Positions 4,301 to 61,173 of a DNA stretch of 64,000 nucleotides are shown in pieces. The DNA is from Betaproteobacteria bacterium (GTDB lineage: Bacteria; Pseudomonadota; Gammaproteobacteria; Burkholderiales; SG8-39): contig SHXR01000007.1 in the NCBI GenBank assembly GCA_009693235.1, positions 11,916 through 75,915 on the forward strand, read 5' to 3'. A program made the position numbers and the translations under genes. The notes beneath the pieces were generated by a model that saw only the letters and a list, made by a program, of their open reading frames with translations, did no database searches and had not been told where the DNA came from. The stretch's first letter is position 1. The number at the start of each line of letters is the position of its first letter.

Positions 4301-4341
4301 TTAAAGAATCACTGAACAAGGGGCTCGCCCCCCCTTGTTCG
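4301..4341 (-). repeat. dual-hairpin repeat, partial copy (G5/C5 hairpin half)
   Basis: ttaaagaatcactgaacaaggggctcgccccccttgttcg aligns to the first 40 nt of copy C. Confidence 0.7.
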
Positions 4342-4342
4342 A

Positions 4343-5221: not shown

Positions 5222-5255
5222 ATTGAAGTTGCGGCGCGCGATCACTTAATCAGCG
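5222..5255 (-). repeat. dual-hairpin repeat, partial copy (hairpin-1 half)
   Basis: attgaagttgcggcgcgcgatcacttaatcagcgtttcccgaag aligns to the last ~40 nt of copy C. It ends 18 nt before the Bug pseudogene ATG. Confidence 0.65.
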
Positions 5256-5273
5256 TTTCCCGAAGGAGCCGTC

Positions 5274-6243: not shown

Positions 6244-6323
6244 AATTTCGCGCGACGATGAACCGTCAAGATAACCGTGGGGTGGCACAGCACAGCGCAT
6301 TCCACCGCGATGGGCAGCATCAT

Positions 6324-6362
6324 CCAAGGAAACGCTGATCAAGCGATCCTGCGGAATACGCT
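6324..6362 (+). repeat. dual-hairpin repeat, partial copy (hairpin-1 half)
   Basis: ccaaggaaacgctgatcaagcgatcctgcggaatacgct aligns to the first 40 nt of copy A. It lies 39 nt upstream of the Ldh-family gene start. Confidence 0.7.
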
Positions 6363-6400
6363 TTGCTATCCCGCCCTACGTTCCAACCAGGACAGAATCC

Positions 6401-10268: not shown

Positions 10269-10352
10269 TCCGGCGCAACGCTGATCAAGCTATCCCGCGC
10301 GATCAGCTGCTTTCGGAGAGTTACGAGCTGGCCTGTTCAGTGACTCCCTAGC
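10269..10352 (+). repeat. dual-hairpin intergenic repeat, degenerate copy E
   Basis: ...gcaacgctgatcaagctatcccgcgcgatcagctgctttcggagagttacgagctggcctgttcagtgactccctag. Hairpin 1 is retained (GCTGATC...GATCAGC); the G5/C5 stem is lost. Confidence 0.7.
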
Positions 10353-35183: not shown

Positions 35184-35816
35184 TCACATCCCTTGCGGGG
35201 GAATCCGTATCGGCCAACCAATTAGGGAATCACTAAACAAGGGGGCTCGCCCATTACTCTGGCTTGCGGTGGAATCGTCAAATGGGATGCGGGCTTCGAC
35301 CCAAGCGGCTATTTCAGTTTTTCCCAAATCAGGCTGCGAACGCTCATCTTGCCATCCACCGGATCCGGGCGACACCGGTGTAGACAGACTGACGCGATTG
35401 CCTTCGAACTTCGCAATGCGCAACTGCTTGGTGCCGGTCCACGCCTGATTCCACGATATGTCGACGTGATGCGTGAGCTCGTTACCTGAGATGGTGTAGG
35501 TTCCGGCGTAGCTGATCACAATGCGAAACAACGCATCGGCTTCAGCCGCCGTCGCCGTGTTGCCGGCCGGTTTAGTGCGCCCGCTGCGAACGATGATAAC
35601 CATCATTCGGTCATCTGGGCCATAGGTAATAAAGCCTTCCGGATTGGCCCCAAGCAGATCGGTCTTCACGCCCGAGAGCACTTCCTCTCGTATCACCGAC
35701 ACCAGTTTCCAGGTGCCAAGGACGCGGCTTGCGATGGTCTCGGAGGGCTGGGCGACGACGCTTTGACTGCCGATGAGCATGAACGCAAAAACCAATGACA
35801 AGGCGAGCTTACGCAT
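35184..35816 (-). pseudogene. lipocalin-like domain protein (secreted), 3' frameshift
   Basis: ATG 35816 (GGAAAGGAAG SD). Signal peptide MRKLALSLVFAFMLIGSQSVVAQ, then the GTWKLVSV...PEGFITYGPDDRMMV lipocalin-like core. After ...STPVS a C-run (35367-35369 on +) shifts the frame. The family-like ending PDPVDGKMSVRSLIWEKLK-stop (stop at 35309-35311) is in the other frame. The open frame runs on into a repeat copy. Confidence 0.6.
35221..35252 (-). repeat. dual-hairpin repeat, partial copy (G5/C5 half, truncated)
   Basis: attagggaatcactaaacaagggggctcgccc aligns to the first 32 nt of copy C. Confidence 0.7.
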
Positions 35817-36590: not shown

Positions 36591-36632
36591 ACGCGCGGGC
36601 ATAGCAAGCGATGTTCGACGGTCCGGAGCATC

Positions 36633-37631: not shown

Positions 37632-37731
37632 GAGTCTCTCCCATCTCGCAGGGCCGTCATCTGCGGCGACGGCACGAGAGCAACGTACGCCGGTCGGGGC
37701 GGGGAGTCAAGGTGGGTGGGGAGGTACGCCT

Positions 37732-38262: not shown

Positions 38263-38349
38263 TCCAGGGGATCAGACCGGGCTGCATACATTTCTGTCAG
38301 AAGTGGGCGCCCGTCGGAGCGATGTCTTCGAATCCGGCGCGATCTCCTG

Positions 38350-39546: not shown

Positions 39547-39564
39547 GTCTGGCGTTCCCTCTGA

Positions 39565-40278: not shown

Positions 40279-40292
40279 GTCGATCGTCCCGT

Positions 40293-42007: not shown

Positions 42008-42011
42008 CCCC

Positions 42012-42899: not shown

Positions 42900-42966
42900 T
42901 CGCTCGGCCGACCGCGATGAACGCCGCGAGCGGATTGCACGCGGCGTGCGCTGAATTGAGTCCGGG

Positions 42967-44136
42967 TTACTTTGACACGCGGAACGGCAGGCGCGTGTAC
43001 TGTCCTTTGATGAGCTTCGAGTACACGAAACTCGTGAGCTTCATGCCGGTGAGATCGGCATCGCGAAAATCGTAATCGGCCAGCACGCCCTTGTGCGGGC
43101 GGCGCAGCCATTCGCATATCTCGGCGGGCTTGGCATCAGCTGGCGTCGCCTTCAGTGCGGCCACCATGAACTGCACCAGGTCCCAGCCGGCGGCCTCGAA
43201 ATTCTTGGGCGTGAGGTTGTATTCCTTGCGATACATCTCCACGAATGCCTTTTGGTCGGGCAGCGGATCTTCGCCCACCAGGAATTCCGGAATGATCACG
43301 TTGTCCGCGCTCTCGCCCATCGCCTTCACATATTCGTACGATGACGACCCGATCGCCGCGATGACCGGCACCTCGATACGCACTTGTTTGACCGCGCGAA
43401 ACGGCGTACCTGACGTTGCGATCACCATGACGGCTTCGGGATTCGAGGCGCGCACCTTGGCCGCCTGGGTGGTCACGTCGGTCGCGCCGATTTCGAATTT
43501 TTCGATCGCGACAAACTCGATGCCCGGGTAGGACGACGAAATCGCTTTCAGAGCGCCCATCACGACGTTCCCGTATCCGGAATCGTGGAGCACACCCACC
43601 CGTTTGATCTTCATGGCATTGGCGGCGTATTCCATCAATGCGCGGGCATTGAGGTCCTGCGGCGGCAGGACGTGATACACGCACTTGCGATCGCGCTCGA
43701 CGGGAACGGAAAGCCCGGCCGGAACGATGTGCGGCAGCTTGAGCGGATCGGTAATGGCGCCGGCCGCGACGATCTGTGCCACTTGCGATGGCCCGATGAG
43801 GCCGACCACCTTCTCGTTGTGCACAAGAGCATTGGCCTTGGTGCGCGCATTGTCTGGGTTGCTCGCATCGTCCTCGATGATCACCTTGATCGGGCGACCA
43901 CGGACACCACCCGCCGCGTTCACCGCCTTCTCGGCGAGCAGCACGCCGTTTCGAGTCGGCACGCCAAGGCCAGCTCCAGGGCCGGTGATCGCAAGAATCG
44001 CGCCGATCTTGATCGGTTCACCAGTCGCTTGTTGAGCATGCGATGGCGTATGAGTGAATAGGGTCGTGGTGAACAGAGCGCAAACTGCTGACACAGCCAG
44101 TGCACGTGCGGGCGTGCCCATCCATCGTCTTGCCAT
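42967..44136 (-). CDS. Liv-type ABC substrate-binding protein
   Basis: 389-aa ORF. Signal peptide ending HAQQ, then IKIGAILAITGPGAGLGVPTRNGVLLAEKAVNAAGGVRGRPIKVIIEDD. First gene of the transporter operon. Confidence 0.9.
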   Translation of the reverse strand: MARRWMGTPARALAVSAVCALFTTTLFTHTPSHAQQATGEPIKIGAILAITGPGAGLGVPTRNGVLLAEKAVNAAGGVRGRPIKVIIEDDASNPDNARTKANALVHNEKVVGLIGPSQVAQIVAAGAITDPLKLPHIVPAGLSVPVERDRKCVYHVLPPQDLNARALMEYAANAMKIKRVGVLHDSGYGNVVMGALKAISSSYPGIEFVAIEKFEIGATDVTTQAAKVRASNPEAVMVIATSGTPFRAVKQVRIEVPVIAAIGSSSYEYVKAMGESADNVIIPEFLVGEDPLPDQKAFVEMYRKEYNLTPKNFEAAGWDLVQFMVAALKATPADAKPAEICEWLRRPHKGVLADYDFRDADLTGMKLTSFVYSKLIKGQYTRLPFRVSK

Positions 44137-44165
44137 GTTGGTCTCCTCCAGCGGGGTATATTCGT

Positions 44166-44181
44166 TATGCTATATAGCATA
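44166..44181. promoter_or_regulatory. perfect 16-bp palindrome (candidate operator) in a divergent promoter region
   Basis: TATGCTATATAGCATA. The first half is the exact reverse complement of the second. It sits in the AT-rich centre of the 81-bp gap between the ABC/E2 operon (-) and the dehydrogenase/cupin/E1 operon (+). Confidence 0.6.
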
Positions 44182-44217
44182 GTTCCGTATCCCAACGTCC
44201 CAACGCTGGAGGTCAAC

Positions 44218-45102
44218 ATGAAAGCGCGCATCGGCATTCTCGGACTCGGAAAGATCGGACGCGCCGCCGGCGAGAATCTGCTCAAGGAAGGTTATCCGGT
44301 GGCGGCCGTGCGCCGTCCAAGCACCGAGGATTTCATTAAGTCGGGCGGAACGCTCGTCGATACGCCCGCGGAACTTGCACGAGATTCCGAGCTGGTCATC
44401 TCGTGCCTGCCAAGCATCGCGTCGATGCATGAAGCATTCGAGGCCCCAAATGGACTCATCGCCGGCGCGCATGATCGCCTCGCCGTGCTCGAGATGGGCA
44501 CGTTCTCGGCAGCGCTCAAGACCGAGCTTGCCAACGGACTGCGCGCCAAGGGCACGCCCATGCTAGACAGCCCGATCAGCGGCACGCCCTCGATGGTGGC
44601 CAACAAAGTGGGAGTTCTTTTCATCAGCGGCGACAAGGCGGTCGCCGAACGCTGGAGCGAAGCGATCAACGCATTTGCGCCGAAGAATTTCCATGTGGGT
44701 GCGTTCGGCTGCGGCATGGCGATCAAGCTCGCCACTAATTTCATCGTGGGCGCCAACAGCCTTGCGGTCGCCGAGGGGTTCGCGTTCGGCATCCGCGCCG
44801 GGCTCGACCCCGAGCTGATGATCAAGGTGATGGGGCCAAGCGCCGCCGGTTCGCGTGTATTCGATTTTCGCGCACCGATGATCGCGCAACGCAAATTCCG
44901 CCCGGCACCCGGGCCTGCACATGTGCTCTGGAAGGATCTTCAACTCGTGAAAGAAGAAAGCGAGCGCTTGGGTCTTGCCGCACCGATCCTGAAGACGCAG
45001 CTTGAATGGTTCGGGAAAATGATGGACGGCGGAAGAGAGGATGATGAGTGCGCCGCGGTATTCGAAGTTCTTATGGAAGCTTCGGAGCCTGGGAGCATGT
45101 AG
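44218..45102 (+). CDS. NAD(P)-dependent oxidoreductase, 3-hydroxyisobutyrate/6-phosphogluconate dehydrogenase-like
   Basis: ATG 44218 behind GGAGG. MKARIGILGLGKIGRAAGENLLKEGYPV (Rossmann fold) ...GCGMAIKLATNFIVG. Confidence 0.8.
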   Translation: MKARIGILGLGKIGRAAGENLLKEGYPVAAVRRPSTEDFIKSGGTLVDTPAELARDSELVISCLPSIASMHEAFEAPNGLIAGAHDRLAVLEMGTFSAALKTELANGLRAKGTPMLDSPISGTPSMVANKVGVLFISGDKAVAERWSEAINAFAPKNFHVGAFGCGMAIKLATNFIVGANSLAVAEGFAFGIRAGLDPELMIKVMGPSAAGSRVFDFRAPMIAQRKFRPAPGPAHVLWKDLQLVKEESERLGLAAPILKTQLEWFGKMMDGGREDDECAAVFEVLMEASEPGSM

Positions 45103-45142
45103 CAGCGGAGTTCAACGACATGTAGCAGCGTGGTTCAACGTC
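45097..45142 (+). repeat. 23-bp imperfect tandem direct repeat spanning a stop codon
   Basis: atgtagcagcggagttcaacgac followed by atgtagcagcgtggttcaacgtc (20 of 23 identical). Copy 1 contains the TAG stop of the dehydrogenase gene (45100-45102). Copy 2 ends 16 nt before the cupin ATG. Confidence 0.8.
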
Positions 45143-45158
45143 AACCGGAGGAGCGATC

Positions 45159-45755
45159 ATGGAAAGCAAGCACTACAGCCCGGCCGAAATGGAAGAAAAA
45201 TGCATCGTGCGCTTCAAGAATCTGAAGTACATGGGTGCGGGCGAGAAGAAAAAGGAAGGACCGATTTCACCCGAGGTCTACAAGATGCTGGCGGCCCCCG
45301 CGTTCGCCATCACCGCCCCGGAATTCGACAATGGTCCATGGGGCGAGGCACGCGTGAAGGTGCCGGACTACGTGAACATCATCGCTGAACTGCCCCCGGG
45401 CGGTGGCGTGCCGCTGCATATGCATGCAAAGACCATCGAAACCTTCATGGCGCTCACCGGCAAATGGAAACTGCAGTGGGGTGACAAGGGCGAATACGAG
45501 ACCATTCTCGAACCGTTCGACACCTTCGCGGTGCCGGCAGCGGTAAGCCGCCGGTTCGAAAACGTCGGCACCGAGAAAGCCTATCTGCTGGTGCTCATCT
45601 CGGGTGGCACCCACGATATGGACGACTTGATCTTTGCACCGAGCGTAGGTAAGGCCATCGAAGACAAGTTCGGCAAGACCACCCGCGAACATGTTGAGAA
45701 GGTCGGATTCAAATTCACCGCCGGCATCTCGGGACAGCATGCGCACATGAAGTAG
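45159..45755 (+). CDS. cupin domain protein (metal-binding HxH...E motif), paralog of 48094..48669
   Basis: 198-aa ORF behind GGAGGAG. Motif LPPGGGVPLHMHAKTIETFMALTGKWKLQWGD. Collinear similarity to the cupin at 48094..48669 along the whole length. Confidence 0.75.
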   Translation: MESKHYSPAEMEEKCIVRFKNLKYMGAGEKKKEGPISPEVYKMLAAPAFAITAPEFDNGPWGEARVKVPDYVNIIAELPPGGGVPLHMHAKTIETFMALTGKWKLQWGDKGEYETILEPFDTFAVPAAVSRRFENVGTEKAYLLVLISGGTHDMDDLIFAPSVGKAIEDKFGKTTREHVEKVGFKFTAGISGQHAHMK

Positions 45756-45839
45756 CGGAAGTCGCCGCATCTTGATCGTCCTTCGCCTTCGCTGGGCCAA
45801 CGCCCGCGAAGGCAACCCCGCATTGCGAGGAAGCGTCGC

Positions 45840-47831
45840 ATGAACATGGAAACCAATCGAGCAAGCCTGATGCCCGCGGCAACGCTCACGCGGCTGTACA
45901 CGACCATGCTGCGCATTCGCCTTTTCGAGGAGAAAGTGCGCGAGCTGTTTCAGGCTGGGATCGTGAAGGGGACGGCCCACAGCTACGCGGGACAGGAGGC
46001 AATCGCCGCCGGGGTGTGCTTCCATCTGCGCAAGGACGACTACATCGGCAGCTATCACCGCGGCCACGGTCATTGCATCGCCAAAGGCGCGCGCATGGAC
46101 CAGATGCTCGCCGAATTGATGGGCAAAGCATCAGGCTATTGCGGCGGGATGGGCGGCTCGATGCATGTGGCCGATCTCGATCTCAACATTCTCGGTGCGA
46201 ACGGCATTGTCGGGGCCACCATGCCGCTTGGCCTGGGTGCCGCGCTCGCAAGCAAGATGCGTGCAACGGATCAGGTCACGATCGCGTTTTTCGGGGACGG
46301 TGCTTCGAACCAAGGCGTATTCCATGAAGCGATGAATCTTGCGGCGGTATGGAAGCTGCCGATGATCTTCGTCTGCGAGAACAATCAATGGGCGCTCAAT
46401 ACGTCGATCCATAGCACGACCTCGGTCGAGCGGATCGCGACGCGTGCAACCGCTTACGGCGTTCCAGGCGTGACCGTCGATGGCAACGATGCGATCGCCG
46501 TGCATGACGTGGCGGGCGAAGCGATCGCCAGGGCGCGCGCCGGCAACGGTCCAACGCTCATCGAAGCGATGACTTGGCGCCATACGCAGCACAGCCTGCG
46601 CGTCAATCTGCCCGATCCACGCACGCAGGCCGACATGGATGAGTGGTTCGCGCGCGATCCGATCGGCCGTTTCGAACGCTGGGCAGCGGGTAATAGTGAC
46701 GCGTCGGGCCGGTTCGGTGTCGTTCGGCAGGAAGCCGAGGCCGAACTCGCGGCGGCCGTGGCGTTTGGGCAGGCTGGGGATGAGCCGACCGTGAGCCAGA
46801 TGATGGCCGCGGTCTATGGCCCCCATCTTGCGCATCACGAGCCGGGCCCGGTCGGCACGCGCAATCTCACCATGGCAGAAGCACTCAACGAAGCGCTGCA
46901 TCAGGAGATGGAGCGTGATGCGAGCGTGTTCGTGATGGGCGAAGATGTCGGCGCAACCGGCGGCCTCTTCCAGGTTTCCAAAGGACTCGCAGACCGCTTC
47001 GGTGAAGCGCGGGTTCGCGATACGCCGATTTCGGAAGCGACATTCTGCGGCGCAGGAGTCGGTGCCGCGATAGCTGGAATGCGACCGGTGGTGGAGGTGC
47101 AGATCTTCGATTTCGTAACGCAGATGATGGACATGATCGTCAACCAAGCCGCCAAGTTCCGGTTCATGCTGGGCGGCCGACCGAATGTTCCGTTTGTCAT
47201 TCGTGGTCCGCAGGGCGGCGGCATCCGCCTCGCCGCGCAACATAGCCAGAGCCTTGAGAGCTGGTTTACCCACATTCCCGGCTTGGTCGTGATCGCGCCT
47301 TCGACACCGTACGACGCGAAGGGCCTTCTTACCGCGGCGATTCGGGACAACAACCCGGTCGTGTTTCTGGAGCACAAGCTGCTTTATCACGGTGCGAGCG
47401 GTCCAGTCCCGACAGAACCCTATGCGATTCCAATCGGCAAGGCGGACGTTAAACGTGCCGGCACGGACGTGACGATCGTTGCGACGCAAATCATGGTGGC
47501 GCGCGCACTCGCGGCCGCCGCGAAGCTTGAGATCGAAGGGGTGAGTGTTGAGGTGATCGATCCGCGTACACTGCGGCCGCTCGACGAGGAAACCATTCTT
47601 GCTTCGGTGAGGAAGACCGGTCGACTCATTGTTGTTCATGAAGCGGTGCGAAGCGGCGGGTTTGGTGCCGAAGTCGCTGCGATTGTCATCGAGAAGGCCT
47701 TCGACTGGCTTGATGCACCGGTCGTTCGAATCGGTGCACCGGACGTTCCGATGCCATTCAATCCGGATCTCGAGCTTGCAGTGATTCCTTCGCAGCAGAT
47801 GATCGAAGAAGCGATCCGCAGGATCGCGTAG
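45840..47831 (+). CDS. thiamine-diphosphate-dependent 2-oxoacid dehydrogenase E1 component, fused alpha/beta subunits
   Basis: Single 663-aa ORF. The alpha-like half has the TPP motif GDGASNQGVFHEAMNLAAVWKLPMIFVCENNQWA. The beta-like half starts near NLTMAEALNEALHQEMERDASVFVMGEDVG and ends with the transketolase C-terminal-like region. Confidence 0.9.
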   Translation: MNMETNRASLMPAATLTRLYTTMLRIRLFEEKVRELFQAGIVKGTAHSYAGQEAIAAGVCFHLRKDDYIGSYHRGHGHCIAKGARMDQMLAELMGKASGYCGGMGGSMHVADLDLNILGANGIVGATMPLGLGAALASKMRATDQVTIAFFGDGASNQGVFHEAMNLAAVWKLPMIFVCENNQWALNTSIHSTTSVERIATRATAYGVPGVTVDGNDAIAVHDVAGEAIARARAGNGPTLIEAMTWRHTQHSLRVNLPDPRTQADMDEWFARDPIGRFERWAAGNSDASGRFGVVRQEAEAELAAAVAFGQAGDEPTVSQMMAAVYGPHLAHHEPGPVGTRNLTMAEALNEALHQEMERDASVFVMGEDVGATGGLFQVSKGLADRFGEARVRDTPISEATFCGAGVGAAIAGMRPVVEVQIFDFVTQMMDMIVNQAAKFRFMLGGRPNVPFVIRGPQGGGIRLAAQHSQSLESWFTHIPGLVVIAPSTPYDAKGLLTAAIRDNNPVVFLEHKLLYHGASGPVPTEPYAIPIGKADVKRAGTDVTIVATQIMVARALAAAAKLEIEGVSVEVIDPRTLRPLDEETILASVRKTGRLIVVHEAVRSGGFGAEVAAIVIEKAFDWLDAPVVRIGAPDVPMPFNPDLELAVIPSQQMIEEAIRRIA

Positions 47832-48093
47832 TCAATTCAGCTCGCTGCGAGCGGACGCCTCGCATTTTAGGTGTCAAGCGGGGCCAGTCGTCGGGAGCCA
47901 AATCCAAACGATGCGCCATTCAGCGCTCAAAACAACGTTGATGCATCGCGCCAGAACCCGTCACTTGCCTGATTGCGGGCATGACGCCGTCAATCTGGAT
48001 GCAGCCGGGGCAGATAAGCCTGCATGATGCGTAGATGATTTACGGCGCGACAGCTAATACATCAGGCTGGCGGCGCACGGGTGTGGCGCTGCG

Positions 48094-48669
48094 CTATTTT
48101 CGCGGCGGATCAAAGTGAAACACCTTGCCGAATGCCTCGCGCACCTTGGCGCCGTGTTCACGCTCCACTCGTTCGGCGATCGAATGCGGCATCGATACAT
48201 CATCGCGGCCATCATTGAGTCCGGTCAACACGGTGAGTTGTACCGCGTCGGTGGTGCCGACGTTGCGAAAGCCGCGATAGACCCTGGGCGGGCAGGAGAA
48301 AACGTCCCATTGATCGAGCGTGATGTGATGGGCGATCGGCTCGCCGATGTGATATTCGATTCGCCCTTGCAGCACCATGAAGGTCTCGAACGTATCGTTG
48401 TGCGAATGCAGGCACGGGCCTTGTCCGGGCGGCAAAATGGAGATGAACATCGTCGTGCGCGCCGCACCGAAAATAGGCGCTTCGGTCCCGAATGGATTCT
48501 TGGTGTCATCCAGAATCACCGGCATGAGCTGGCGCGCGAAGATGATATCGATGGCCTCTTGTGGCACCCAGGTAAGATCTTTCGTCGCCGTGGTCATCTG
48601 CTTCAACTGACTGAAACGGCTTACGCGCCGATCGAGTTCTTCGCGGGTTGGGGTGTAGATGTCTTTCAT
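48094..48669 (-). CDS. cupin domain protein (metal-binding HxH...E motif), paralog of 45159..45755
   Basis: 191-aa ORF behind AGGAGG. Motif LPPGQGPCLHSHNDTFETFMVLQGRIEYHIGE. Confidence 0.75.
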   Translation of the reverse strand: MKDIYTPTREELDRRVSRFSQLKQMTTATKDLTWVPQEAIDIIFARQLMPVILDDTKNPFGTEAPIFGAARTTMFISILPPGQGPCLHSHNDTFETFMVLQGRIEYHIGEPIAHHITLDQWDVFSCPPRVYRGFRNVGTTDAVQLTVLTGLNDGRDDVSMPHSIAERVEREHGAKVREAFGKVFHFDPPRK

Positions 48670-48684
48670 GACGCCTCCTATTAT

Positions 48685-48783
48685 CTAAGGAAACGCTGAT
48701 TAAGCTATCTCGCGTAATCAGCGTGACCATAATTTTCGGGGAGTTACGAGGGGGCGAACCCCCTTGTTCAGTTATTCCCTAAG
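48685..48783 (+). repeat. dual-hairpin intergenic repeat, full copy A (reference copy, 99 bp)
   Basis: ctaaggaaACGCTGATTAagctatctcgcgTAATCAGCGTgaccataattttcggggagttACGAGGGGGcgaaCCCCCTTGTtcagttattccctaag. Hairpin 1 is a 10-bp perfect stem. Hairpin 2 is a G5/C5 stem. TA lies at both borders, with imperfect inverted ends GGAAACGCTG / CAGTTATTCC. Confidence 0.9.
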
Positions 48784-48922
48784 CCTTCTGGAAACTGTAA
48801 GCCCGGATTGCCTCGCGGTCAACGCAGGATGCGCTAAACGGATAAGCTCTTCATCGTAGGCCGGTCACGGATCGCTTCGACCGAACCACGAACCTTGTCG
48901 GATTCCAATAATAAGGGGAGAC

Positions 48923-50047
48923 ATGAACGAGACCGAATACGAGATGACGCAACCGGAACGCTCGACGCAATGCCTCGACTGCAGCGGCACGCATGCGTCT
49001 GCTACGTTCGGCGCCAGGCGGCACTTTCTGAAGGCGCTTGGTGGCTTCGGTGCTGCAGCCGCGTTGCCGGCCTGCACAGCGCTCGACTCGGGGCCGCGCC
49101 AGAAGCTCATCGACACGCATCATCATTTTTATGCCCCGGCGTATTAGGATGCCTGGCTAGCTTGGGACAAGCAGCGCAACATTCCGCACACCCCATTGCA
49201 GGGCAGTTGGACGGTCCGGCAGGCCGTTGAAGAGTTGGATGAGGGCGGGGCCGGCACAGCGATTCTGTCGCTCGCCTCGACGCCGGGACTGTGGTTCAAC
49301 TTGCCCGCGGCGGAGGTCTCGAAGATGGCGAGGACATGCAACGAGTTCGCCGCGAATATGGTGCGCGATCACCCCGGACGCTTCGGCCTCTTCGCCACGC
49401 TCTCGATGCTCGACATCGACACGACTTTGAAGGAAATCGAGTACGTCCTCGATACGCTGAAGGCGGACGGCGTCGGGCTGCAAACCAACTACGGGGACAA
49501 ATGGCCCGGCGACAAACTCTATCAACCGGTATGGGAAGAATTGAATCGCCGCAAAACAATCGTCTACTTCCATCCGCTGGTGGCGGCGTGTTGCGGCAAC
49601 CTGGCGGTGGGGACCTTCCCCGATGTGATCGAGGTACCGCACGACACGACGCGGGCGGTCACGAGCCTGCTCCTCTCCGGAACATTCGCCCGCAACCGCA
49701 ACATCCGCTGGATCTTCTCGCATGCGGGTGGAACGATCCCGATGCTCGCCGGCCGCATCGGCGCGTTTGCCCGCATGCGGAAAGACCTCGCCCAATTCGC
49801 ACCCGATGGCGTGGACAATGAGCTGCGGCGGCTGCACTACGACACCGCCAATGCCTTGCACCCGTCATCCATGGCGTCCCTGCTGAAGCTCGTTCCGGAC
49901 TCACAGGTGACGTTCGGGTCGGACTATCCATACTTTCGGGTGGGTACGCAGGGGAGCGCATTGCAGCAGCTCGGGCTCGGTTCCTCGCAAGTACGCGCAA
50001 TCGAGCGAGGCAACGCCGAGCGGCTGATCCCGCGACTCAAGGCATAA
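48923..50047 (+). pseudogene. amidohydrolase-2 (ACMSD/metal-dependent hydrolase) family protein with Tat-like signal, interrupted by an in-frame TAG
   Basis: ORF 48923..49147 (RRHFLKALGGFGAAAALPA...LIDTHHHFYAPAY-TAG) and ORF 49196..50047 are in the same frame. The codon after the TAG at 49145-49147 continues [13 protein letters not shown]...IVYFHPL...HAGGTIP...FGSDYPY. Confidence 0.85.
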
Positions 50048-50057
50048 CCACCACAGC

Positions 50058-50085
50058 GGCCGCCCCGGGACCGGCCGGGGCGGCC
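50058..50085 (+). terminator. GC-rich hairpin after the amidohydrolase pseudogene
   Basis: ggccgccccgg-gaccgg-ccggggcggcc: 11-bp perfect stem 10 nt after the stop. Only a short TT follows, so the U-tract is weak. Confidence 0.45.
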
Positions 50086-50292
50086 TTCAATCAGCGAACT
50101 TCGACATCGATACCGGAACCCGTCAACGCCTTTGCCGTGTGCGTGATGGCGTTGCGGTGATCACGGCACGAAAAAAGGCATATCGGTCGCCGACTGCATC
50201 GCGCACCTTCAGATAAACCCGCACACGCTCACCGGCGATCGCGTCGCTGCGCTGCGAACGCATCGGACCGGTTCGCAAGAGCAAGCGACAGG

Positions 50293-51276
50293 TTATTGCC
50301 GTTCGATATTCTTCACTTCCACGATGCGCTTCCAGCGCACGATGTCGCGTTCGACGCGCGCACGCATCTCAGCAGAAGAGATATGCGCCGGTACGCCACC
50401 GAACTCCGCGAATCGCCGCTCGATCTCAGGCAGCGCCAAAACGGCTCGCAACTCGCGACTGATGCGATCGATGATGGCAGGCGGTGTTGCGGGCGAGGCC
50501 ATCAGACCTTGCCACGATATCAGTTCGATCTCGCGCAACGTCTCGGCTACCGGTGGAATCTCGGGCAACAACGCATAGCGGCGTGCGGCGGTAATGCCAA
50601 GTGGACGCAGCTTGCCACTGCGAATCGGATTGCCGGCAAAGGTCGTGGTTGCGAGCATCACATCCACGCGCCCGGCGATCACTTCGACAAACGCGAGCGC
50701 CTCACCCTTGAAGGGCACGTGAATCATGTTCGTGCCGGCTTCCATATTCAGCCACTCGCCCAGCAGGTGGTGAATGCTGCCGATGCCGGGCGAGCCATAA
50801 CTGATCCGGCCGGGTGCCGCCTTCGCGCGGGCAATGAGATCGGCAAACGACTTGATCGGCGATTCCGGCACCACCCCGATCACCATCGGATAAGCGATAA
50901 CGGTGCTGATCCACGCGAAGTCGTTGACCGGGTCGTAGGGCAACTTCTTCATAATCGCAGCGGTACTCGCATGGCCGCCACTCAGAAGCCCGAGTGTGTA
51001 GCCGTCCGGCGGCGACTTCACCACCGCGTCGTTGGCGATAAGGCCCGTACCGCCTGGACGCGCCTCGACGATGATTGGCTGCCCAAGCCGCTCGCCAAGA
51101 TGCTGGCCGATCAGGCGCGCGACGATGTCGGCCGTGCTGCCACCCGCGAAACCAATGAGGAGGCGAATCGGGCGGTAGGGATAGTCCTGGGCAAATGCGC
51201 ATGGGGCCGCGACCATTGCCAGACAAGCGATTGCCCAAGACAACCCACGATGAATGAAGCCGGCCGCGCGCGTCAT
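50293..51276 (-). CDS. Bug/TctC-family tripartite tricarboxylate transporter substrate-binding protein
   Basis: Intact 327-aa ORF. Signal peptide, then [48 protein letters not shown]. Its start overlaps the cysK stop in ATGA. Confidence 0.9.
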
Positions 51277-52208
51277 TCCATCAACCCGGCATAGAGCGGT
51301 GTCGTCAAATATCGCTCACCAAATGATGGAATGATTGCGACGATCATCTTGCCGCGGCTCGTATCGCGCCTGGCCACTTGCAGCGCCGCCCAAATAGCCG
51401 CCCCGGCCGATATGCCGGTTAGCAGGCCCTCTTCCTTCGCCAGGCGACGCGCGGTATCCAGTGCGTCATCGTTTTTCACACGCATGATCTCGTCGCAAAC
51501 CTCCGCATCAAAATTGGCCGGTACAAACCCCGCGCCGATACCCTGAATCACATGCGGCCCTTTTTGCCCGCCTGAGAGGACAGGTGAAGCATCCGGCTCG
51601 ACCGCCACGCATCGAAAGCCGGGCTTTTTCGCTTTGATTGCCTTGCCGATGCCGCTTAGCGTGCCGCCCGTACCGATACCCGATATCAGGATGTCGGCGC
51701 GACCATCGGTGTCGCGCCAGATTTCCTCGGCGGTGGTGCGGCGATGCACTTCCGGATTCGCCGCGTTATTGAATTGCTGCGGCATGAAATATTTCTTTGG
51801 GTCGGATGCGACCAGCTCTTCGGCGCGTTTCACCGCACCCATCGCCCCTTCGGCAGCGGGGGTGAGAATCAACTGCGCACCATAGGCGCGAATCAACGCC
51901 CGGCGCTCGCGGCTCGCCGATTCAGGCATTGTGAAGATCGCCGGATATCCTTTTACGGCACACACCATCGCCAACGCAATGCCGGTGTTGCCGCTGGTCG
52001 GCTCAACGATCGTCGTGGCCGGGCCGATCAAGCCGGCCCGCTCGGCCGCCTCGATCATGGACACACCGATGCGATCCTTGACGGAGAGCCCCGGGCTGAA
52101 GAACTCGAGCTTCGCCAGAACTTCGGCTTGGCATCCCTCTGTGAGGCGATTGATTCGCACCAGCGGGGTGTTGCCGACCAATTCGGTGACGTCACGGGCG
52201 ATCTTCAC
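51273..52208 (-). CDS. cysK: cysteine synthase A (O-acetylserine sulfhydrylase)
   Basis: 311-aa [17 protein letters not shown] lysine context [40 protein letters not shown]. Confidence 0.9.
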
Positions 52209-52265
52209 AGCGGCTCTCCTGGTGTGAGTACGTTGCGCTAAGGTTTGCGCGGGTCATCCACGGGG

Positions 52266-52475
52266 TTAACGTACGTAATCCCCCCATGGTCCGGTGCCAT
52301 TTAACTGAACGATGACCTCATCGTTGGTCCAGGCGAAGTGCTGATGCTTTGGCTGCATGATCATCAATCCGCCGGCCGGGACGGCCATCGATTTGTCCAG
52401 GTCGAGCTTATCACCGGAGCCCATGTAGAACGTTCCGGACAATACGGTAACGCGTTCCACGGTCGCGGCGAGGCT
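52266..52475 (-). pseudogene. 3' stump of a small cupin gene
   Basis: Only the C-terminal ~70 codons read as cupin (TVERVTVLSGTFYMGSGDKLDLDKSMAVPAGGLMIMQPKHQHFAWTNDEVIVQLNGTGPWGDYVR). The rest of the ORF is antisense to another remnant. The 5' boundary is uncertain by about 50 nt. Confidence 0.45.
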
Positions 52476-53446
52476 TATTTCGCCGACGCCAAGCCGGAAC
52501 CCGCGATCGATTGTTTTACGCGCTCGATCGCCTTCGCCAAGGCAATCGGCGACAAGAGCTGCGAGTCGGAAAACCTGATGATGATCGGCTGGGCGAGCCT
52601 CGGGTCGATGGGGCTTGGCGACTATCCGCGCGCGATCACGCATCTGGACGCCGGCCTTGCCATCGCGCGGGCCGCCGATCTCGCCTGGCATATCGGTCCC
52701 CTGCGGATTGCACGCGATCACATCCGCCACTGCCTTGGGCAGTTCGGCGAAGCCTGGCAGGGCCTCAACGAAACGTTGAAGCGATTGGAAGAACTGCACT
52801 TAGTCCGCTACCAGATGATGGCCTGCAACATGCTGGGGCACCTGTTGCTTGATTTGTCGCTCGATGCTCAGGCAACGGCCGCATTTGACTGCGGACTCGC
52901 GATCGCCAATCAAGCCAATATGACTTATTGGACCCCGCTTCTGCATGCCAATCGCGCGATCGCGCGAGTGCGGCAAGGTGCGCCGGATGTGGAATCGGAA
53001 CTGGTGAGCGCGCTCGAGCATTCGCTGACCAATCGGGAAGGCTGGTTCCTGCCACGCTGTTACGAGGGGCTCGCCGAGTTGCAATGGCGGCGCGGCGACA
53101 CAGCACGGTGCATACACTATGTCGATCAGCTTCTATCGCTCGCCGAACAGGGCAATCTGCGCGAAGTGCGCGCGCGGACAGCGATGGCGGGGTGAAGCGA
53201 TGCTGGCAAGCGGTCATCACGAAGCGGCGAATACCGAATTGCGCGCCGCGCTTGGTACGCTGCGCTTATCATGGGATATTCATCACGCGTTAGCGCGAGT
53301 CTCACGCGTTAGCGCGAGTCTCACGCGTTAGCGCGCAACCCGAAACGGCCAAACGCCACGACGCTGATGCGCTCGATCTGCGGACCAGAATCGAATTGAG
53401 TCTACGCGACACCGATTTACGGCTGGGACCAAACGATCTCGTCTAA
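52440..53446 (+). pseudogene. 3' remnant (TPR-like repeat region) of a large regulatory protein, at least 2 frameshifts
   Basis: No N-terminal domain is present. TPR-like helical repeats (AIDCFTRSIAFAKAIGDKSCESENLMMIGWASLGSMGLGDYPRAITHLDAGLAIARAADL...) continue through three frames (52338.., 53119.., 53348..) to TAA 53444-53446. Confidence 0.45.
53284..53335 (+). repeat. 19-bp tandem repeat, ~2.7 copies
   Basis: cacgcgttagcgcgagtct x2 followed by cacgcgttagcgcg. It lies inside the decayed TPR-regulator remnant. Confidence 0.85.
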
Positions 53447-54227
53447 AGCCCCAGAAAATCCAACACCGCCCGATCGAAGATCTCGGTCTGCTCGATATTC
53501 GGCAGGTGCCCCGCGTTCTTGATCACCACCAACTTCGAGCCTTGAATCCCGCGCTGTAGGAACTCAGCGGCGCTCACCGGCGTGCCGACATCCTGTTCAC
53601 CCACGATGATCAACGTAGGCATCTTGATGTCGGCAAGGATTGATGCCTGATTCATTTTCTTGATCGCATGCGCGCAACCCACCAGACCATCGACCGCGGT
53701 ACGTGAAATCATCGTGGCCATTTTCTCCATCTGCGCGGGATGAGTCTCACGATAGGATTGCGTGAGCCAGCGCTCCGTCATCCCCTTCACAAACGCGGAA
53801 GTTCCCTTGCTTTGCGCAAGGGCAATGCGATCGTCCCATGCCGATTCCGGGGTAAATGGCACGCGGTATCGCAAAGGACCACCGTTCGCAGCCGTGCTGC
53901 GTGCTTCGCGGCCAGACATTGCGCAATCATGCCGCCCATCGATAGCCCAAGAAAATTCACCCGATCGATCCGCAACGCATCGAGCAGTGCTACCACATCG
54001 GCGGCCAGGAGATCGATGGTGTACGGGCCGGGCGTAGCTTCCGTCCCGCCATGACCGCGCGTGTCGTAGCGCAGCAATCGATACTTCGCGGCAAACGCCG
54101 GCACTTGCAAGTCCCACATGCCGTAATCGGTCAGAAGTGAATTGCTCAACATGAGAACGGGTGCATTCACAGGGCCATCGAATTGATAGCTGATCTCGAT
54201 GCCGTTGGCTTTGATGCGGCTGGACAT
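53443..54227 (-). pseudogene. alpha/beta hydrolase, 3-oxoadipate enol-lactonase (PcaD)-like, one frameshift
   Basis: ATG 54227 (GAGGAAAG SD). MSSRIKANGIEISYQFDGPVNAPVLMLSNSL...GLSMGGMIAQ...VLCDTA in ORF 53787..54323. It continues as VPFTPESAWDDRIALAQSKG...NAGHLPNIEQ in ORF 53443..54117. The switch is near 53860-53866. Confidence 0.8.
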
Positions 54228-54276
54228 GGCCGGCTTTCCTCGCGGATTGGTAGGGCTTCGATCGCCCACAGAGTTA

Positions 54277-54373
54277 CCAAGGGAACTCTGATTAGAACCT
54301 ATCTCATCAATCCGCGTTCTCAAAGATCGAGGGAGTTACGAGGGGGCGAGGTCCTTGTTCAGTTAATCCCAAG
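54277..54373 (+). repeat. dual-hairpin intergenic repeat, full-length degenerate copy D
   Basis: ccaagggaactctgattagaacctatctcatcaatccgcgttctcaaagatcgagggagttacgagggggcgaggtccttgttcagttaatcccaag. The right half is well conserved; both stems are eroded. Confidence 0.8.
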
Positions 54374-54437
54374 CATATACACGGGATCAAATCTGCGCCG
54401 CCAGGCGCGCAATCGGGTAGCCTCGCCGCATCCTGCC

Positions 54438-54953
54438 ATGACCCTTAATACTCGGCACGTCCCTATGCCATCCACCGCCAACGAAGTCGGCAAGTACCAG
54501 ATCGGCCTGCGCTCCTATCGTAATATCGGTTGGGCCCTCGTGGTACTCGGCGCGCTTTGCATCGTCGGCGCATGGTCGGCGCAGGTGTATTGGGCAACGG
54601 GTGTATTCGGGCTGCTTAGCGGAGTGGGGCTCTACATGGCCCTTGCCGCTGGGGGGTTCGATTTGGATGCGGACGGCATTCGTCACCGTTCGACGTTTGG
54701 CGCCTGGGCCATCAAGTGGGATGAGATCACGCATGTCGAAATCGGCGTAACCGACGGCACCTTCGTACTGGCCGGCAGCACCAAGCGCTTCATCTTGTCG
54801 CCATCTGGTTGGTGGTCCGGACTGGATACGGGCGGTGCGCTCGATTTTCTGGTTGAACAACTAAAGGCCCGCAATCTGCCGCCGCAACCGAGCCGGACCG
54901 CTGCGTACAAGATCATGAAGAACACGCGGGTGGAAAGACGCGCCGCGCTGTAG
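54438..54953 (+). CDS. hypothetical two-TM membrane protein
   Basis: ORF 54183..54953; its 5' part is a repeat copy, so ATG 54438 (or 54465) is the likely start. Two hydrophobic helices (IGWALVVLGALCIVGAW and VFGLLSGVGLYMALAAGGF), then a ~100-aa soluble tail. Confidence 0.5.
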   Translation: MTLNTRHVPMPSTANEVGKYQIGLRSYRNIGWALVVLGALCIVGAWSAQVYWATGVFGLLSGVGLYMALAAGGFDLDADGIRHRSTFGAWAIKWDEITHVEIGVTDGTFVLAGSTKRFILSPSGWWSGLDTGGALDFLVEQLKARNLPPQPSRTAAYKIMKNTRVERRAAL

Positions 54954-54984
54954 CGGGTTACGAATTCGCCGCGGGTCGGATCGA

Positions 54985-55080
54985 TTAGGGAAACGCTGAT
55001 TGAGCTTTCCCGCTCAATCAGCGTGCTCAAATATTCAGGGAGCTACGAGGGGCGAGCCCCCTCGTTCAGTGATTCCTTAG
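54985..55080 (+). repeat. dual-hairpin intergenic repeat, full copy B
   Basis: ttagggaaacgctgattgagctttcccgctcaatcagcgtgctcaaatattcagggagctacgaggggcgagccccctcgttcagtgattccttag. Collinear with copy A, and both hairpins are kept by compensatory changes (GATTGAGC...GCTCAATC). Confidence 0.9.
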
Positions 55081-55323
55081 TCCGACCCAAGCGCCGCGAC
55101 GAATGACGAGGGCGCTCACCACGCCGATCACTCCATTGGCCAGCACGACGTAAAGAATTGTGAAAGTCGCGGCACCACGTGCGCCTTCGCTCGCTCACGT
55201 GCGATGTTAGGCGGAATTACCGATGTCGAGCATGCCTCGCGTTGCGTACCATCAAGGTACCGACCTCATCGTCGAGCGTGCACCGGCATGTCACAACCGG
55301 CCAAGGGAAAGGGGGGGGTCGCG

Positions 55324-57968: not shown

Positions 57969-58065
57969 GCAATCCCGGAGCCGGATTGATTCTCGCTACA
58001 TGGCAATAATGAGGGCCAGGGGTCGCATCTTGTATCATCACACCCTGCATTGAAAGGTTGCCACG

Positions 58066-60758: not shown

Positions 60759-60857
60759 CTTAGGGAATAACTGAACAAGGGGGCTCGCCCCCTCGTAACT
60801 CCCTGAAAAGTATGAGCACGCTGATTGCGCGCGATAGCTTAATCAGCGTTTCCTTAG
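60759..60857 (-). repeat. dual-hairpin intergenic repeat, full copy C (inverted orientation)
   Basis: cttagggaataactgaacaagggggctcgccccctcgtaactccctgaaaagtatgagcacgctgattgcgcgcgatagcttaatcagcgtttccttag is the reverse complement of the copy A/B architecture. It lies 33 nt upstream of the LLM gene start. Confidence 0.9.
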
Positions 60858-61052: not shown

Positions 61053-61075
61053 ACTGGCGTTCGATGAATCGCGCG

Positions 61076-61117: not shown

Positions 61118-61147
61118 TTCATCGTCCATCAACGATCAGGCGCGGCG

Positions 61148-61173
61148 CTTAGTGAATAACTGCCCCCCCTGAG
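61148..61173 (-). repeat. dual-hairpin repeat, short degenerate fragment
   Basis: cttagtgaataactgccccccctgag resembles the terminal 26 nt of copy C (cttagggaataactgaacaagggggc). Confidence 0.45.

What the first reader, a model, noticed from the sequence alone, without database searches (positions are those of the whole stretch)
48685..48783. Unnamed ~97-99 bp dual-hairpin intergenic repeat family with TA borders and imperfect terminal inverted repeats (MITE-like)
Four full-length copies are present: 48685-48783, 54985-55080, 54277-54373 and, inverted, 60759-60857. One degenerate near-full copy lies at 10269-10352. Five partial copies lie at 4301-4341, 5222-5255, 6324-6362, 35221-35252 and 61148-61173. 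All share one architecture. It begins with TA, then (A)GGGAAACGCTGAT, then hairpin 1 (ACGCTGATTA...TAATCAGCGT). A spacer follows, then GGGAG(T/C)TACGAG, then hairpin 2 (GGGGG-CGAR-CCCCC). It ends with TTGTTCAGT(T/G)ATTCC and TA. Hairpin 1 varies between copies by compensatory changes (ATTAAGC.../ATTGAGC...GCTCAAT), so the structure rather than the sequence is conserved. The two ends are imperfect inverted repeats (GGGAAACGCTG versus GGGAATAACTG, 8 of 11). Both borders are TA, which is the pattern left by TA-duplicating IS630/Tc1-mariner-type transposition. All copies are intergenic. Partial copies are always one hairpin half, suggesting decay or recombination between halves. I could not match this to classical REP/BIME, ERIC or BOX elements from memory.
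Basis: seen in the sequence. Interest (0 to 1): 0.7.

Follow-up and report, generated by a model that had tools for sequence, protein, structure and literature searches.

The report
IS5-type miniature transposon (MITE) family
The repeat is real and is a small non-coding "jumping" DNA element of an ordinary kind.

Summary
The family is real. Sixteen more full copies lie in three uncultured Burkholderiales/Betaproteobacteria genome bins (MAGs) and one JGI contig. Rfam, plasmid records, viral contigs and JGI metagenomes gave no match.

The core is 88-90 bp, GGAAACGCTGATTAAG...CTTGTTCAGTTATTCC. Its ends are 11/16 inverted repeats. The four bases outside the ends recur as a direct repeat: 59/76 positions match against 42 expected (p<1e-5). 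Their consensus is YTAR and includes non-TA pairs such as TTTA/TTTA and CAAA/CAAA. This is a 4-bp target-site duplication, not a TA one.

IS5 also makes a 4-bp YTAR duplication. Its terminal repeats, read here from E. coli K-12, match the element's tips at 10-11 of 16 positions. One orthologous junction lacks the element: a 9-nt spacer against roughly 100 nt.

The hairpins fold stably but show no meaningful covariation. Hairpin 1 is the left end plus an internal inverted copy of it. Many insertions sit on TAA/TAG stop codons.

No matching transposase was found in the 283 kb available, so IS5-group parentage is inferred. Verdict: a new, unnamed member of a known kind, of modest interest.

The parts
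48685..48688 (+). Copy A, left target-site duplication CTAA
   Evidence: Read from the sequence. It is identical to 48779-48782. Family-wide permutation test.
48689..48778 (+). Copy A core (90 bp), the copy named in the finding. Left terminal repeat 48689-48704 (GGAAACGCTGATTAAG). Internal inverted copy of that repeat 48713-48728. Hairpin 1 at 48693-48724. Hairpin 2 at 48746-48767. Right terminal repeat 48763-48778 (reverse complement GGAATAACTGAACAAG).
   Evidence: nhmmer E 1.7e-31. Terminal-repeat scan. The fold itself was run on the near-identical copy D. The left end lies 5 nt upstream of the ribosome-binding site of the cupin gene 48094-48669(-).
48779..48782 (+). Copy A, right target-site duplication CTAA
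54277..54372 (+). Copy B, the most diverged full copy (70-74% identical to the others). Core 54281-54368, flanked by CCAA (54277-54280) and CCAA (54369-54372). No TA at either border.
   Evidence: nhmmer E 8e-27. Sequence. Flanks. It lies between the abhydrolase start (about 54227, minus strand) and ORF 54438-54953(+).
54985..55080 (+). Copy C. Core 54989-55076, flanked by TTAG (54985-54988) and TTAG (55077-55080).
   Evidence: nhmmer E 3.5e-30. Sequence. It starts 31 nt after the stop codon of ORF 54438-54953.
60760..60857 (-). Copy D, inverted. Core 60764-60853, flanked on the minus strand by CTAA (60854-60857) and CTAA (60760-60763).
   Evidence: nhmmer E 1.3e-32. Sequence. Its right end is 33 nt upstream of the ATG (60726) of the luciferase-like monooxygenase.
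10275..10352 (+). Degenerate near-full copy. The left tip has decayed and hairpin 2 is deleted.
   Evidence: nhmmer E 4e-10 and 6e-11. Sequence.
4301..4334 (-). Solo right half. The right terminal repeat plus an inverted partner form a 10-bp GAACAAGGGG/CCCCTTGTTC hairpin just downstream of gene 4343-5140(-).
   Evidence: nhmmer E 6e-6. Sequence.
5234..5264 (-). Solo left half. The left terminal repeat is intact (GGAAACGCTGATTAAG). It lies 13 nt upstream of the ATG at 5274.
6322..6363 (+). Solo left half. Left terminal repeat GGAAACGCTGATCAAG, preceded by CCAA.
35221..35252 (-). Solo right half, lying inside the 3' end of the lipocalin-domain ORF 35184-36110(-).
   Evidence: nhmmer E 3e-6..
61145..61173 (+). 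Doubtful remnant of the right tip (GCGCTTAGTGAATAACTG). Not accepted as a copy.
   Evidence: Only an 18-nt, 89% match (D20). Not found by nhmmer at E<=1.

Best explanation
This is a family of miniature inverted-repeat transposable elements (MITEs). Each copy is an 88-90 bp non-coding DNA transposon that encodes no protein and is moved in trans by a DDE transposase.

Shown:
- The element ends in imperfect inverted repeats: GGAAACGCTGATTAAG on the left and the reverse complement of GGAATAACTGAACAAG on the right.
- Insertion duplicates 4 bp of target with consensus YTAR.
- Copy presence differs between orthologous sites.

Inferred:
- The mobilising enzyme belongs to the IS5 group of the IS5 family. 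IS5 makes the same 4-bp YTAR duplication, and its 16-bp terminal repeats resemble the element's tips at anchored positions.
- The hairpins are by-products of the build rather than selected RNA structures. Hairpin 1 is the left terminal repeat paired with an internal inverted copy of itself, so it may provide two transposase-binding sites. Hairpin 2 pairs the inner part of the right terminal repeat with adjacent sequence.
- In a 60% G+C, gene-dense genome, YTAR sites that tolerate insertion are mostly TAA/TAG stop codons and the A+T-rich stretch just upstream of ribosome-binding sites. Duplicating the 4 bp also restores the stop codon. Surviving copies therefore pile up at gene ends, often filling the whole spacer between convergent genes.
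- Half copies are decay products, or two-ended mini-derivatives of a single end.
For: - Copy number and restricted spread. The window has 4 full, 1 degenerate and 4 half copies. There are 15 full copies in 14 loci from 3 Burkholderiales/Betaproteobacteria MAGs, and further copies in JGI contigs L031 and L034. Independent Logan assemblies break inside the element, as expected for a multi-copy repeat.
- Target-site duplication. In 19 full copies the 4 nt outside the core match as direct repeats at 59/76 positions. Permuting flanks among copies gives 42.1 +/- 3.4 (p<1e-5). Seven of 19 pairs are perfect against 1.6 expected (p=1.3e-4). Read as inverted repeats they match at 43/76, which is chance.
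- Target logo from 38 flanks: Y 38/38, T 30/38, A 29/38, R 36/38.
- IS5 likeness. The IS5 terminal repeats read from E. coli K-12 IS5A are GGAAGGTGCGAATAAG and GGAAGGTGCGAACAAG. The right tip matches at 11/16; only 4.3e-4 of all window 16-mers do as well. The left tip matches at 10/16 (1.7e-3). IS5 duplications follow 5'-(C/T)TA(A/G)-3' (PMC5009759).
- Empty site. In L013, convergent LLM and TctC genes are separated by TTG-TTAG-element-TTAG, and the second TTAG supplies the TctC stop codon. In the ortholog L034 (genes 80-85% nt identical) the same stop codons are 9 nt apart with no element.
- Variable junction. At the FAD-oxidase/orn junction, L031 has overlapping stop codons inside CTAA and no insert. 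L016 carries the element. L033, whose flanks are 97-99% identical to L016, carries a different insert.
- Stop-codon association. In 10 of 19 copies a flanking gene ends within 7 nt of the element, and in 7-8 of them the stop codon lies in the duplicated 4 bp.
- No coding capacity and no RNA-family match.
Against: - No IS5-family or other DDE transposase, and no longer element with these ends, was found in the window or in any of the 283 kb of related DNA held (phmmer with InsH; Pfam on window ORFs). Plasmid records gave no match either.
- Similarity to the IS5 terminal repeats is partial (10-11/16) and was compared with one reference IS only. From memory, IS701-family elements also make 4-bp YTAR duplications; I could not confirm this in the papers searched.
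- The empty site is not base-perfect, because the genomes compared are about 15-20% diverged.
- In L016 the insert between the duplicated TTAGs carries 25 extra nt beside the element, and its immediate flanks are CGAA/CAAA.
- 12 of 19 duplications are imperfect, most with one mismatch.
Confidence: 0.75

Rival explanations
1. One reading: a MITE mobilised by an IS630/Tc1-mariner transposase that duplicates the dinucleotide TA, with terminal repeats starting directly after the TA.
For: The centre of the target consensus is TA, and three of the four full window copies have TA at both borders.
Against: - The bases on either side of the TA recur as direct repeats, not inverted ones: CTAA/CTAA, TTAG/TTAG.
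- Several copies have duplications without a central TA: TTTA, CAAA, CCAA, and CCGG/CTGG.
- Only 9 of 19 copies have TA on both sides.
- The tips resemble the IS5 terminal repeats.
Confidence: 0.04
2. A MITE of another DDE family that also makes short YTAR-type duplications (for example IS701, or a different IS5-family subgroup), not the IS5 group proper.
For: A 4-bp YTAR duplication alone may not be unique to IS5 (my recollection for IS701, not confirmed). No cognate transposase was found.
Against: The anchored matches to the IS5 terminal repeats, GGAA at the tip and GA.(T/C)AAG at positions 10-16, are unlikely by chance. A second, unrelated insert at the same junction in L033 has even more IS5-like ends (GAATCTGCGCGG and GAGTGTGCGCTG, against IS5 GGAAGGTGCG) and YTAR flanks. 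That suggests IS5-type activity in this lineage.
Confidence: 0.15
3. A REP/REPIN-type element spread by the REP-associated tyrosine transposase (RAYT) encoded at 58066-58932.
For: A RAYT gene lies in the window between copies C and D: NCBIfam NF047646 scores 80.5 bits against a cut-off of 80, and Pfam Y1_Tnp gives 3.5e-12. The element consists of hairpins.
Against: - Y1 transposases leave no target duplication, yet a duplication that varies from copy to copy is present.
- The immediate flanks of the RAYT gene contain no part of the element.
- The orthologous RAYT in relative L030 sits on a 16.9-kb contig with no copy.
- There is no GTAG-type 5' tetranucleotide next to a single 20-40 nt palindrome.
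Confidence: 0.04
4. Primarily a host regulatory module (an intergenic terminator, 5'-UTR structure or small RNA) kept by selection, with mobility incidental or absent.
For: - The hairpins are stable (z -3.8).
- Substitutions in hairpin 2 are G-C to G-U on the element's plus strand.
- Copies sit between convergent genes or between a promoter-like site and a ribosome-binding site. An example is TTGACC-17-TACAGT at 48822-48794, reading through copy A towards the cupin gene.
Against: - There is no orientation bias relative to flanking genes.
- Hairpin 2 is not called as an intrinsic terminator; the T-tract is too weak.
- Covariation is negligible and there is no Rfam match.
- Target duplications and variable occupancy show insertion. 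Exaptation of individual copies is not excluded.
Confidence: 0.07

Closest known systems
IS5 (IS5 group, IS5 family) of E. coli, and MITEs derived from IS5-family elements (for example P. gingivalis BrickBuilt/MITE239 and the N. meningitidis ATR/ISNme1 pair, PMC4596501)
   Same: - 4-bp target-site duplication with the YTAR target consensus (PMC5009759).
- Tips start with GGAA and match the IS5 16-bp terminal repeats at 10-11/16.
- Non-coding and multi-copy, as in published IS5-family MITEs whose ends match resident IS elements.
   Different: - No transposase partner has been identified.
- There is no sequence similarity to IS5 beyond the 16-bp tips.
- The hosts are an uncultured Burkholderiales lineage.
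- The interior is two local hairpins built from copies of the ends.
Correia elements (NEMIS) of Neisseria (from memory)
   Same: Similar size class (about 100-155 bp), terminal inverted repeats, hundreds of intergenic copies close to gene ends, and effects on neighbouring transcripts discussed in the literature.
   Different: Correia elements duplicate TA and have 26-bp terminal repeats. Here the duplication is 4 bp and the repeats are about 16 bp. The sequences are unrelated as far as I recall; I did not compare them with a tool.
REP/BIME/REPIN elements with RAYT transposases
   Same: Short hairpin-forming intergenic repeats. A RAYT gene is present in the window.
   Different: REPs have no target duplication and no terminal inverted repeats of this kind, and they usually flank their RAYT. 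None of that holds here.
RUP/IS630-Spn1-type and other TA-duplicating MITEs
   Same: About 100 bp, inverted ends, A+T-rich target.
   Different: The duplication length and sequence differ: 4-bp YTAR against 2-bp TA.

Membership tests
MITE (non-autonomous DNA transposon) | Short (<~500 bp), with no coding capacity for a transposase | tested here: met
   The core is 88-90 bp and carries only spurious short ORFs.
MITE (non-autonomous DNA transposon) | Terminal inverted repeats | tested here: met
   GGAAACGCTGATTAAG against GGAATAACTGAACAAG, 11/16, conserved across 19 copies.
MITE (non-autonomous DNA transposon) | Target-site duplication that differs from copy to copy | tested here: met
   59/76 flank positions are identical against 42.1 +/- 3.4 in permutations. 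Seven pairs are perfect, including TTTA/TTTA and CAAA/CAAA.
MITE (non-autonomous DNA transposon) | Multiple dispersed copies, with presence or absence varying at orthologous sites | tested here: met
   More than 20 full copies in 4-5 genomes. L013 is filled and L034 empty. L016 is filled, L031 is empty and L033 carries a different insert. The empty sites come from diverged genomes, so they are not base-perfect.
IS5-group (IS5 family) derivative | 4-bp duplication at a YTAR target | tested here: met
   Logo: Y 38/38, T 30/38, A 29/38, R 36/38. IS5 reference in PMC5009759.
IS5-group (IS5 family) derivative | Ends homologous to IS5-type terminal repeats | tested here: inconclusive
   10-11/16 identity to the E. 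coli IS5 repeats at anchored positions, with empirical frequencies of 4e-4 and 2e-3. The comparison used a single reference IS, and ISfinder was not available.
IS5-group (IS5 family) derivative | A resident autonomous IS with the same ends, encoding a DDE_Tnp_1-type transposase | tested here: inconclusive
   None in the window or in the 283 kb held, and none in PLSDB. The whole genomes of the hosts could not be searched.
IS630/Tc1-mariner-derived MITE | Strict TA target duplicated as 2 bp | tested here: not met
   The duplication spans 4 nt. TA is at both borders in only 9 of 19 copies, and non-TA duplications occur.
REP/REPIN (RAYT-mobilised) | No target duplication; REP copies flank the RAYT gene | tested here: not met
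   A duplication is present. The flanks of RAYT 58066-58932 lack the element.
Any Rfam RNA family | Score at or above the family's gathering threshold | tested here: not met
   No hit in the window at gathering thresholds. Around copy D the best hit is E=1.2 at 16.8 bits against a cut-off of 41.2.
Structured RNA under selection | Compensatory base-pair changes beyond what relatedness explains | tested here: not met
3 double-change cells out of 492, and a covariation term of -0.04 kcal/mol.

The most novel reading that the evidence does not exclude
The family may be more than a passive MITE. Stop-stop and stop-start gene junctions containing YTAR may act as preferred landing pads, because the 4-bp duplication regenerates the TAA/TAG stop codon for the flanking gene or genes.

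Several unrelated small elements (this one, the L033 insert and the L032 palindromic element) appear to compete for the same junction in closely related strains. Paired copies bracket single small genes: window ORF 54438-54953, the L009 155-aa gene and the L007 313-aa gene. Full copies A, B and D also lie within 40 nt of synteny breakpoints with the nearest relative.

Together these hint that the elements may help shuffle or mobilise single-gene cassettes.
Probability: 0.15. Interest if true: 0.5.

Novelty: new member of a known kind. Interest (0 to 1): 0.3.

Why it matters
The result gives a correct mechanistic label for an abundant repeat in a poorly known, uncultured Burkholderiales lineage: a 4-bp YTAR duplication of IS5 type.

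- It explains why assemblies of these organisms break at this sequence.
- It provides a marker for strain typing.
- It flags stop-codon junctions as variable sites.
- It predicts that an active IS5-type transposase exists, or recently existed, in these genomes.

It does not reveal a new kind of mobile element or a new regulatory RNA.

Tried and rejected
- **Rfam.** Gathering thresholds on the whole window and E-value mode around copy D gave nothing meaningful.
- **PLSDB plasmids.** I searched the 8.5-kb region and the element, with E up to 10. No match.
- **JGI metagenome scan with the 21-mer of the left end.** It returned one hit that is a chance match inside a coding region, L018. Two viral-contig scans returned nothing.
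- **Literal sequence search in papers.** The only hit is an unrelated primer.
- **Empty site at copies A, B and D.** The nearest relatives (L019-L025, L030, about 78-84% nt identity) have a different local gene order. The comparisons show synteny breaks, not clean empty sites.
- **Look-ups by identical protein.** These only returned the same population.
- **The two halves around gene 4343-5140.** I tested whether they bound an autonomous IS. The gene is a spermidine-synthase-like methyltransferase, not a transposase.
- **The gap 34.6-36.1 kb.** I tested whether it hides an IS. It holds a lipocalin-domain gene. Other gaps in the gene map hold ordinary genes.
- **RAYT link.** Rejected.
- **Hairpin 2 as a canonical terminator, and an outward promoter in the left end.** Neither is supported by the consensus scans.
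- **IS701/YTAR citation.** Not found.

Full report

Yes, in its main points. Reading the four stated places shows four clearly related sequences of about 96-100 nt. A profile built from them recovers the following in the window:

| Copy | Coordinates | Strand | nhmmer E |
|---|---|---|---|
| A | 48684-48783 | + | 1.7e-31 |
| C | 54984-55081 | + | 3.5e-30 |
| B | 54276-54373 | + | 8e-27 |
| D | 60759-60858 | - | 1.3e-32 |
| degenerate | 10276-10351 | + | 4e-10 |
| right half | 4301-4334 | - | 6e-6 |
| right half | 35222-35252 | - | 3e-6 |
| left half | 6323-6363 | + | 2e-4 |
| left half | 5234-5261 | - | 3e-3 |

A 19-copy profile gives the same list. The claimed remnant at 61148-61173 is not recovered at E<=1 by either profile. 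It rests on an 18-nt, 89% match only. Core motifs never appear in dinucleotide-preserving shuffles of the window. The two hairpins are predicted and are more stable than shuffles: z -2.9 as DNA and -3.8 as RNA on either strand.

**2. Where else does it occur?**

The window comes from a metagenome. Its proteins are found on ENA ERZ1305449 and on Logan SRR8561390/91 contigs. The Logan contigs end inside the element, as expected when an assembler meets a multi-copy repeat.

A pattern scan of one genome per species found 15 copies in 14 loci from three MAGs:
- a Betaproteobacteria bin, JANMUI01;
- a Burkholderiales bin, JBJXGX01;
- CAMDRJ01, labelled 'Klebsiella pneumoniae'. Its genes are typical Burkholderiales genes (TctC receptors, LLM oxidoreductases), so the label looks wrong.

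Diverged copies also occur on JGI contigs L031 and L034. Nothing was found in Rfam, PLSDB or viral contigs. The JGI metagenome scan returned one hit, a chance match inside a coding region. A literal search of the paper library found only an unrelated primer. The family is therefore narrow in distribution and, as far as I could check, undescribed.

**3. Anatomy**

Aligning 19 full copies gives a mean pairwise identity of 88% (range 66-99%). The conserved core runs from GGAAACGCTGATTAAG to CTTGTTCAGTTATTCC and is 88-90 bp. The two tips are inverted repeats at 11 of 16 positions, of the form GGAAnnnCTGAnnAAG.

The 3' arm of hairpin 1 (GGTCACGCTGATTGCG) is a third, internal and inverted, copy of the same 16-mer. 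Hairpin 1 is therefore 'left end plus inverted left end'. Hairpin 2 pairs the inner part of the right end (CAAGGGGG) with the adjacent CCCCCTCG. The solo right half at 4301-4334 is likewise a right end facing an inverted partner. On this reading the dual-hairpin look comes from reiterated transposon ends.

**4. The borders: 4 bp, not TA**

The four bases just outside the core recur on both sides of each copy as direct repeats:

| Copy or copies | Left / right flank |
|---|---|
| A and D | CTAA / CTAA |
| C and L013 | TTAG / TTAG |
| L014 | CTAG / CTAG |
| L005 | TTTA / TTTA |
| L006 | CAAA / CAAA |
| B (one-base register shift) | CCAA / CCAA |

Most of the other copies have one mismatch. Over the 19 copies, 59 of 76 positions agree. 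Permuting right flanks among copies keeps the site preference and gives 42.1 +/- 3.4 (p<1e-5). Seven pairs are perfect against 1.6 expected (p=1.3e-4). Treated as inverted repeats, the flanks agree at 43/76, which is chance.

The site logo is Y 38/38, T 30/38, A 29/38, R 36/38, that is YTAR. TA is present on both sides in only 9 of 19 copies. This is the signature of a 4-bp target-site duplication with a YTAR preference. It contradicts the TA / IS630-mariner reading.

**5. Which transposase?**

IS5 duplicates 4 bp with the motif 5'-(C/T)TA(A/G)-3' (PMC5009759, read). I read the IS5 terminal repeats directly from IS5A of E. coli K-12: GGAAGGTGCGAATAAG and GGAAGGTGCGAACAAG.

Anchored at the tips, the element's right end (GGAATAACTGAACAAG) matches at 11/16 and the left end at 10/16. 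Only 4.3e-4 and 1.7e-3 of all 16-mers in the window do as well. MITEs whose ends match resident IS5-family elements are documented, for example in P. gingivalis and N. meningitidis (PMC4596501).

The best-supported mechanism is therefore trans-mobilisation by an IS5-group DDE transposase. This step is inferred. No such transposase, and no longer element with these ends, is present in the window or in the 283 kb of related DNA I could fetch. The host genomes could not be searched whole. From memory, IS701-family elements also give 4-bp YTAR duplications; I could not confirm that in the library and keep it as a sub-rival.

**6. Empty sites**

The nearest relatives of the window organism (L019-L025 and L030, genes 78-84% nt identical) have a different local gene order. 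In them abhydrolase, TctC and cupin are adjacent with about 30-nt spacers. In the window they are separated by 1.6-3.8 kb blocks. Copies A, B and D therefore fall within 6-36 nt of synteny breaks, and no clean empty site is available.

Two MAG sites were more informative.

- **L013 against L034.** In L013, convergent LLM and TctC genes are joined by TAG-TTG-TTAG-[element]-TTAG, and the second TTAG provides the TctC stop codon. In ortholog L034 the same two stop codons are 9 nt apart with no element.
- **The FAD-oxidase/oligoribonuclease junction.** In L031 the two stop codons overlap inside a single CTAA, with no insert. L016 has the element. L033, whose flanks are 97-99% identical to L016, has a different 172-nt insert with ends GAATCTGCGCGG and GAGTGTGCGCTG and flanks TTAG and CTAG. 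L032 has a third, palindromic element.

Occupancy is thus variable at orthologous junctions, as expected for insertions. The comparisons are between diverged genomes and are not base-perfect. The L016 insert also includes 25 extra nt.

**7. Where copies survive**

Simple gene calls around the 19 copies show no orientation bias. In 10 copies a flanking gene ends within 7 nt of the element, and in 7-8 the TAA/TAG stop codon lies in the duplicated 4 bp. Examples are L003, L007, L011, L013 and also L034. In several convergent gene pairs the element is the entire spacer.

Other copies sit 7-26 nt upstream of start codons. Copy A is 5 nt from the cupin ribosome-binding site, with a promoter-like site (TTGACC-17-TACAGT) just beyond its far end, so it would be transcribed as a 5' leader.

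I read this as target preference plus purifying selection in a 60% G+C, gene-dense genome. Whether stop-codon sites are enriched beyond that was not tested.

**8. Structure and function claims**

RNAalifold returns the two hairpins, but the covariation term is -0.04 kcal/mol. Only 3 of 492 cells change on both sides. The substitutions in hairpin 2 are G-C to G-U on the element's plus strand, which is a weak hint at most. Hairpin 2 is not called as an intrinsic terminator. There is no support for a selected RNA structure, though exaptation of single copies cannot be excluded.

**9. The RAYT gene**

A REP-associated tyrosine transposase is encoded at 58066-58932. Its flanks contain none of the element's sequence. 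Its ortholog in L030 sits on a contig without copies. Y1 transposition also leaves no target duplication. I reject it as the mobiliser.

**10. Verdict**

This is a genuine, apparently unnamed MITE family of uncultured Burkholderiales. In kind it is ordinary, a new member of a known class. The side observations are leads, not findings: stop-codon junctions as shared landing pads for several small elements, single genes bracketed by two copies, and copies at synteny breaks.

Noticed in passing
window 58066-58932 (+): A REP-associated tyrosine transposase (RAYT) gene: NCBIfam NF047646 scores 80.5 bits against a cut-off of 80, and Pfam Y1_Tnp gives 3.5e-12. It lies between inverted copies C and D. 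Its flanks carry no part of this element, and no obvious REP family was seen. The hairpin at 57970-57988 is unique in the window.
   Followed up: partly
window 25675-60729 compared with L030 (JGI Ga0673000_0003936): The window is colinear with a relative (68-84% nt identity across the aligned blocks) but has extra blocks between conserved genes: 32716-48100 (15 kb), 48680-50293, 51193-53449 and 54241-58060. Full copies A, B and D lie 6-36 nt from the ends of the alignable blocks.
   Followed up: partly
L016 4139-4253, L033 1505-1676, L032 10416-10583, L031 6418-6421: The convergent FAD-oxidase/oligoribonuclease junction has four states in related genomes. In L031 the stop codons overlap in CTAA. 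L016 has this element. L033, the same species as L016, has an unrelated 172-nt insert with IS5-like ends and YTAR flanks. L032 has a palindromic element of about 160 nt with ends CCACAGGGGACGCAGAGGACGCAGGGG. That element also occupies the ADH/FIST spacer (L032 16742-16897), where L031 has this element.
   Followed up: partly
window 54277-55080; L009 4816-5482; L007 3214-4358; window 4301-5264: Single small genes are bracketed by two copies or halves: ORF 54438-54953 (171 aa, no Pfam hit) between B and C; a 155-aa secreted-protein gene between inverted copies in L009; a 313-aa gene between a full and a degenerate copy in L007; and the spermidine-synthase-like gene 4343-5140 between a right half and a left half in the same orientation.
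   Followed up: no
window 35184-36110 (-): The lipocalin-domain ORF reads through the partial copy at 35221-35252. The Pfam domain ends near residue 244-265 of 308, so the C-terminal tail may have been created by the insertion and later decay.
   Followed up: partly
window 5274-5618 and 5632-6243 (+): A TctC-family receptor appears split into two ORFs: a signal-peptide part, and a part matching profile positions 106-273. This is a frameshift, either a pseudogene or an assembly error.
   Followed up: no
window 61077-61118; 55356-55391; 53300-53335: Short tandem repeats lie in the poorly coding stretches near the copies: CGCTTGCCCCCGAT x3, GCTTGCGAT x4 and TCTCACGCGTTAGCGCG x2. About 660 nt (60859-61521) next to copy D has no convincing gene.
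   Followed up: no
L004-L009, L012-L014, L016 (CAMDRJ01): The MAG is titled 'Klebsiella pneumoniae isolate TH-11nov19-3', but it carries TctC receptors, LLM oxidoreductases and this Burkholderiales-restricted repeat. Its closest proteins are labelled Betaproteobacteria or Burkholderiales. The organism name in the record looks wrong.
   Followed up: no
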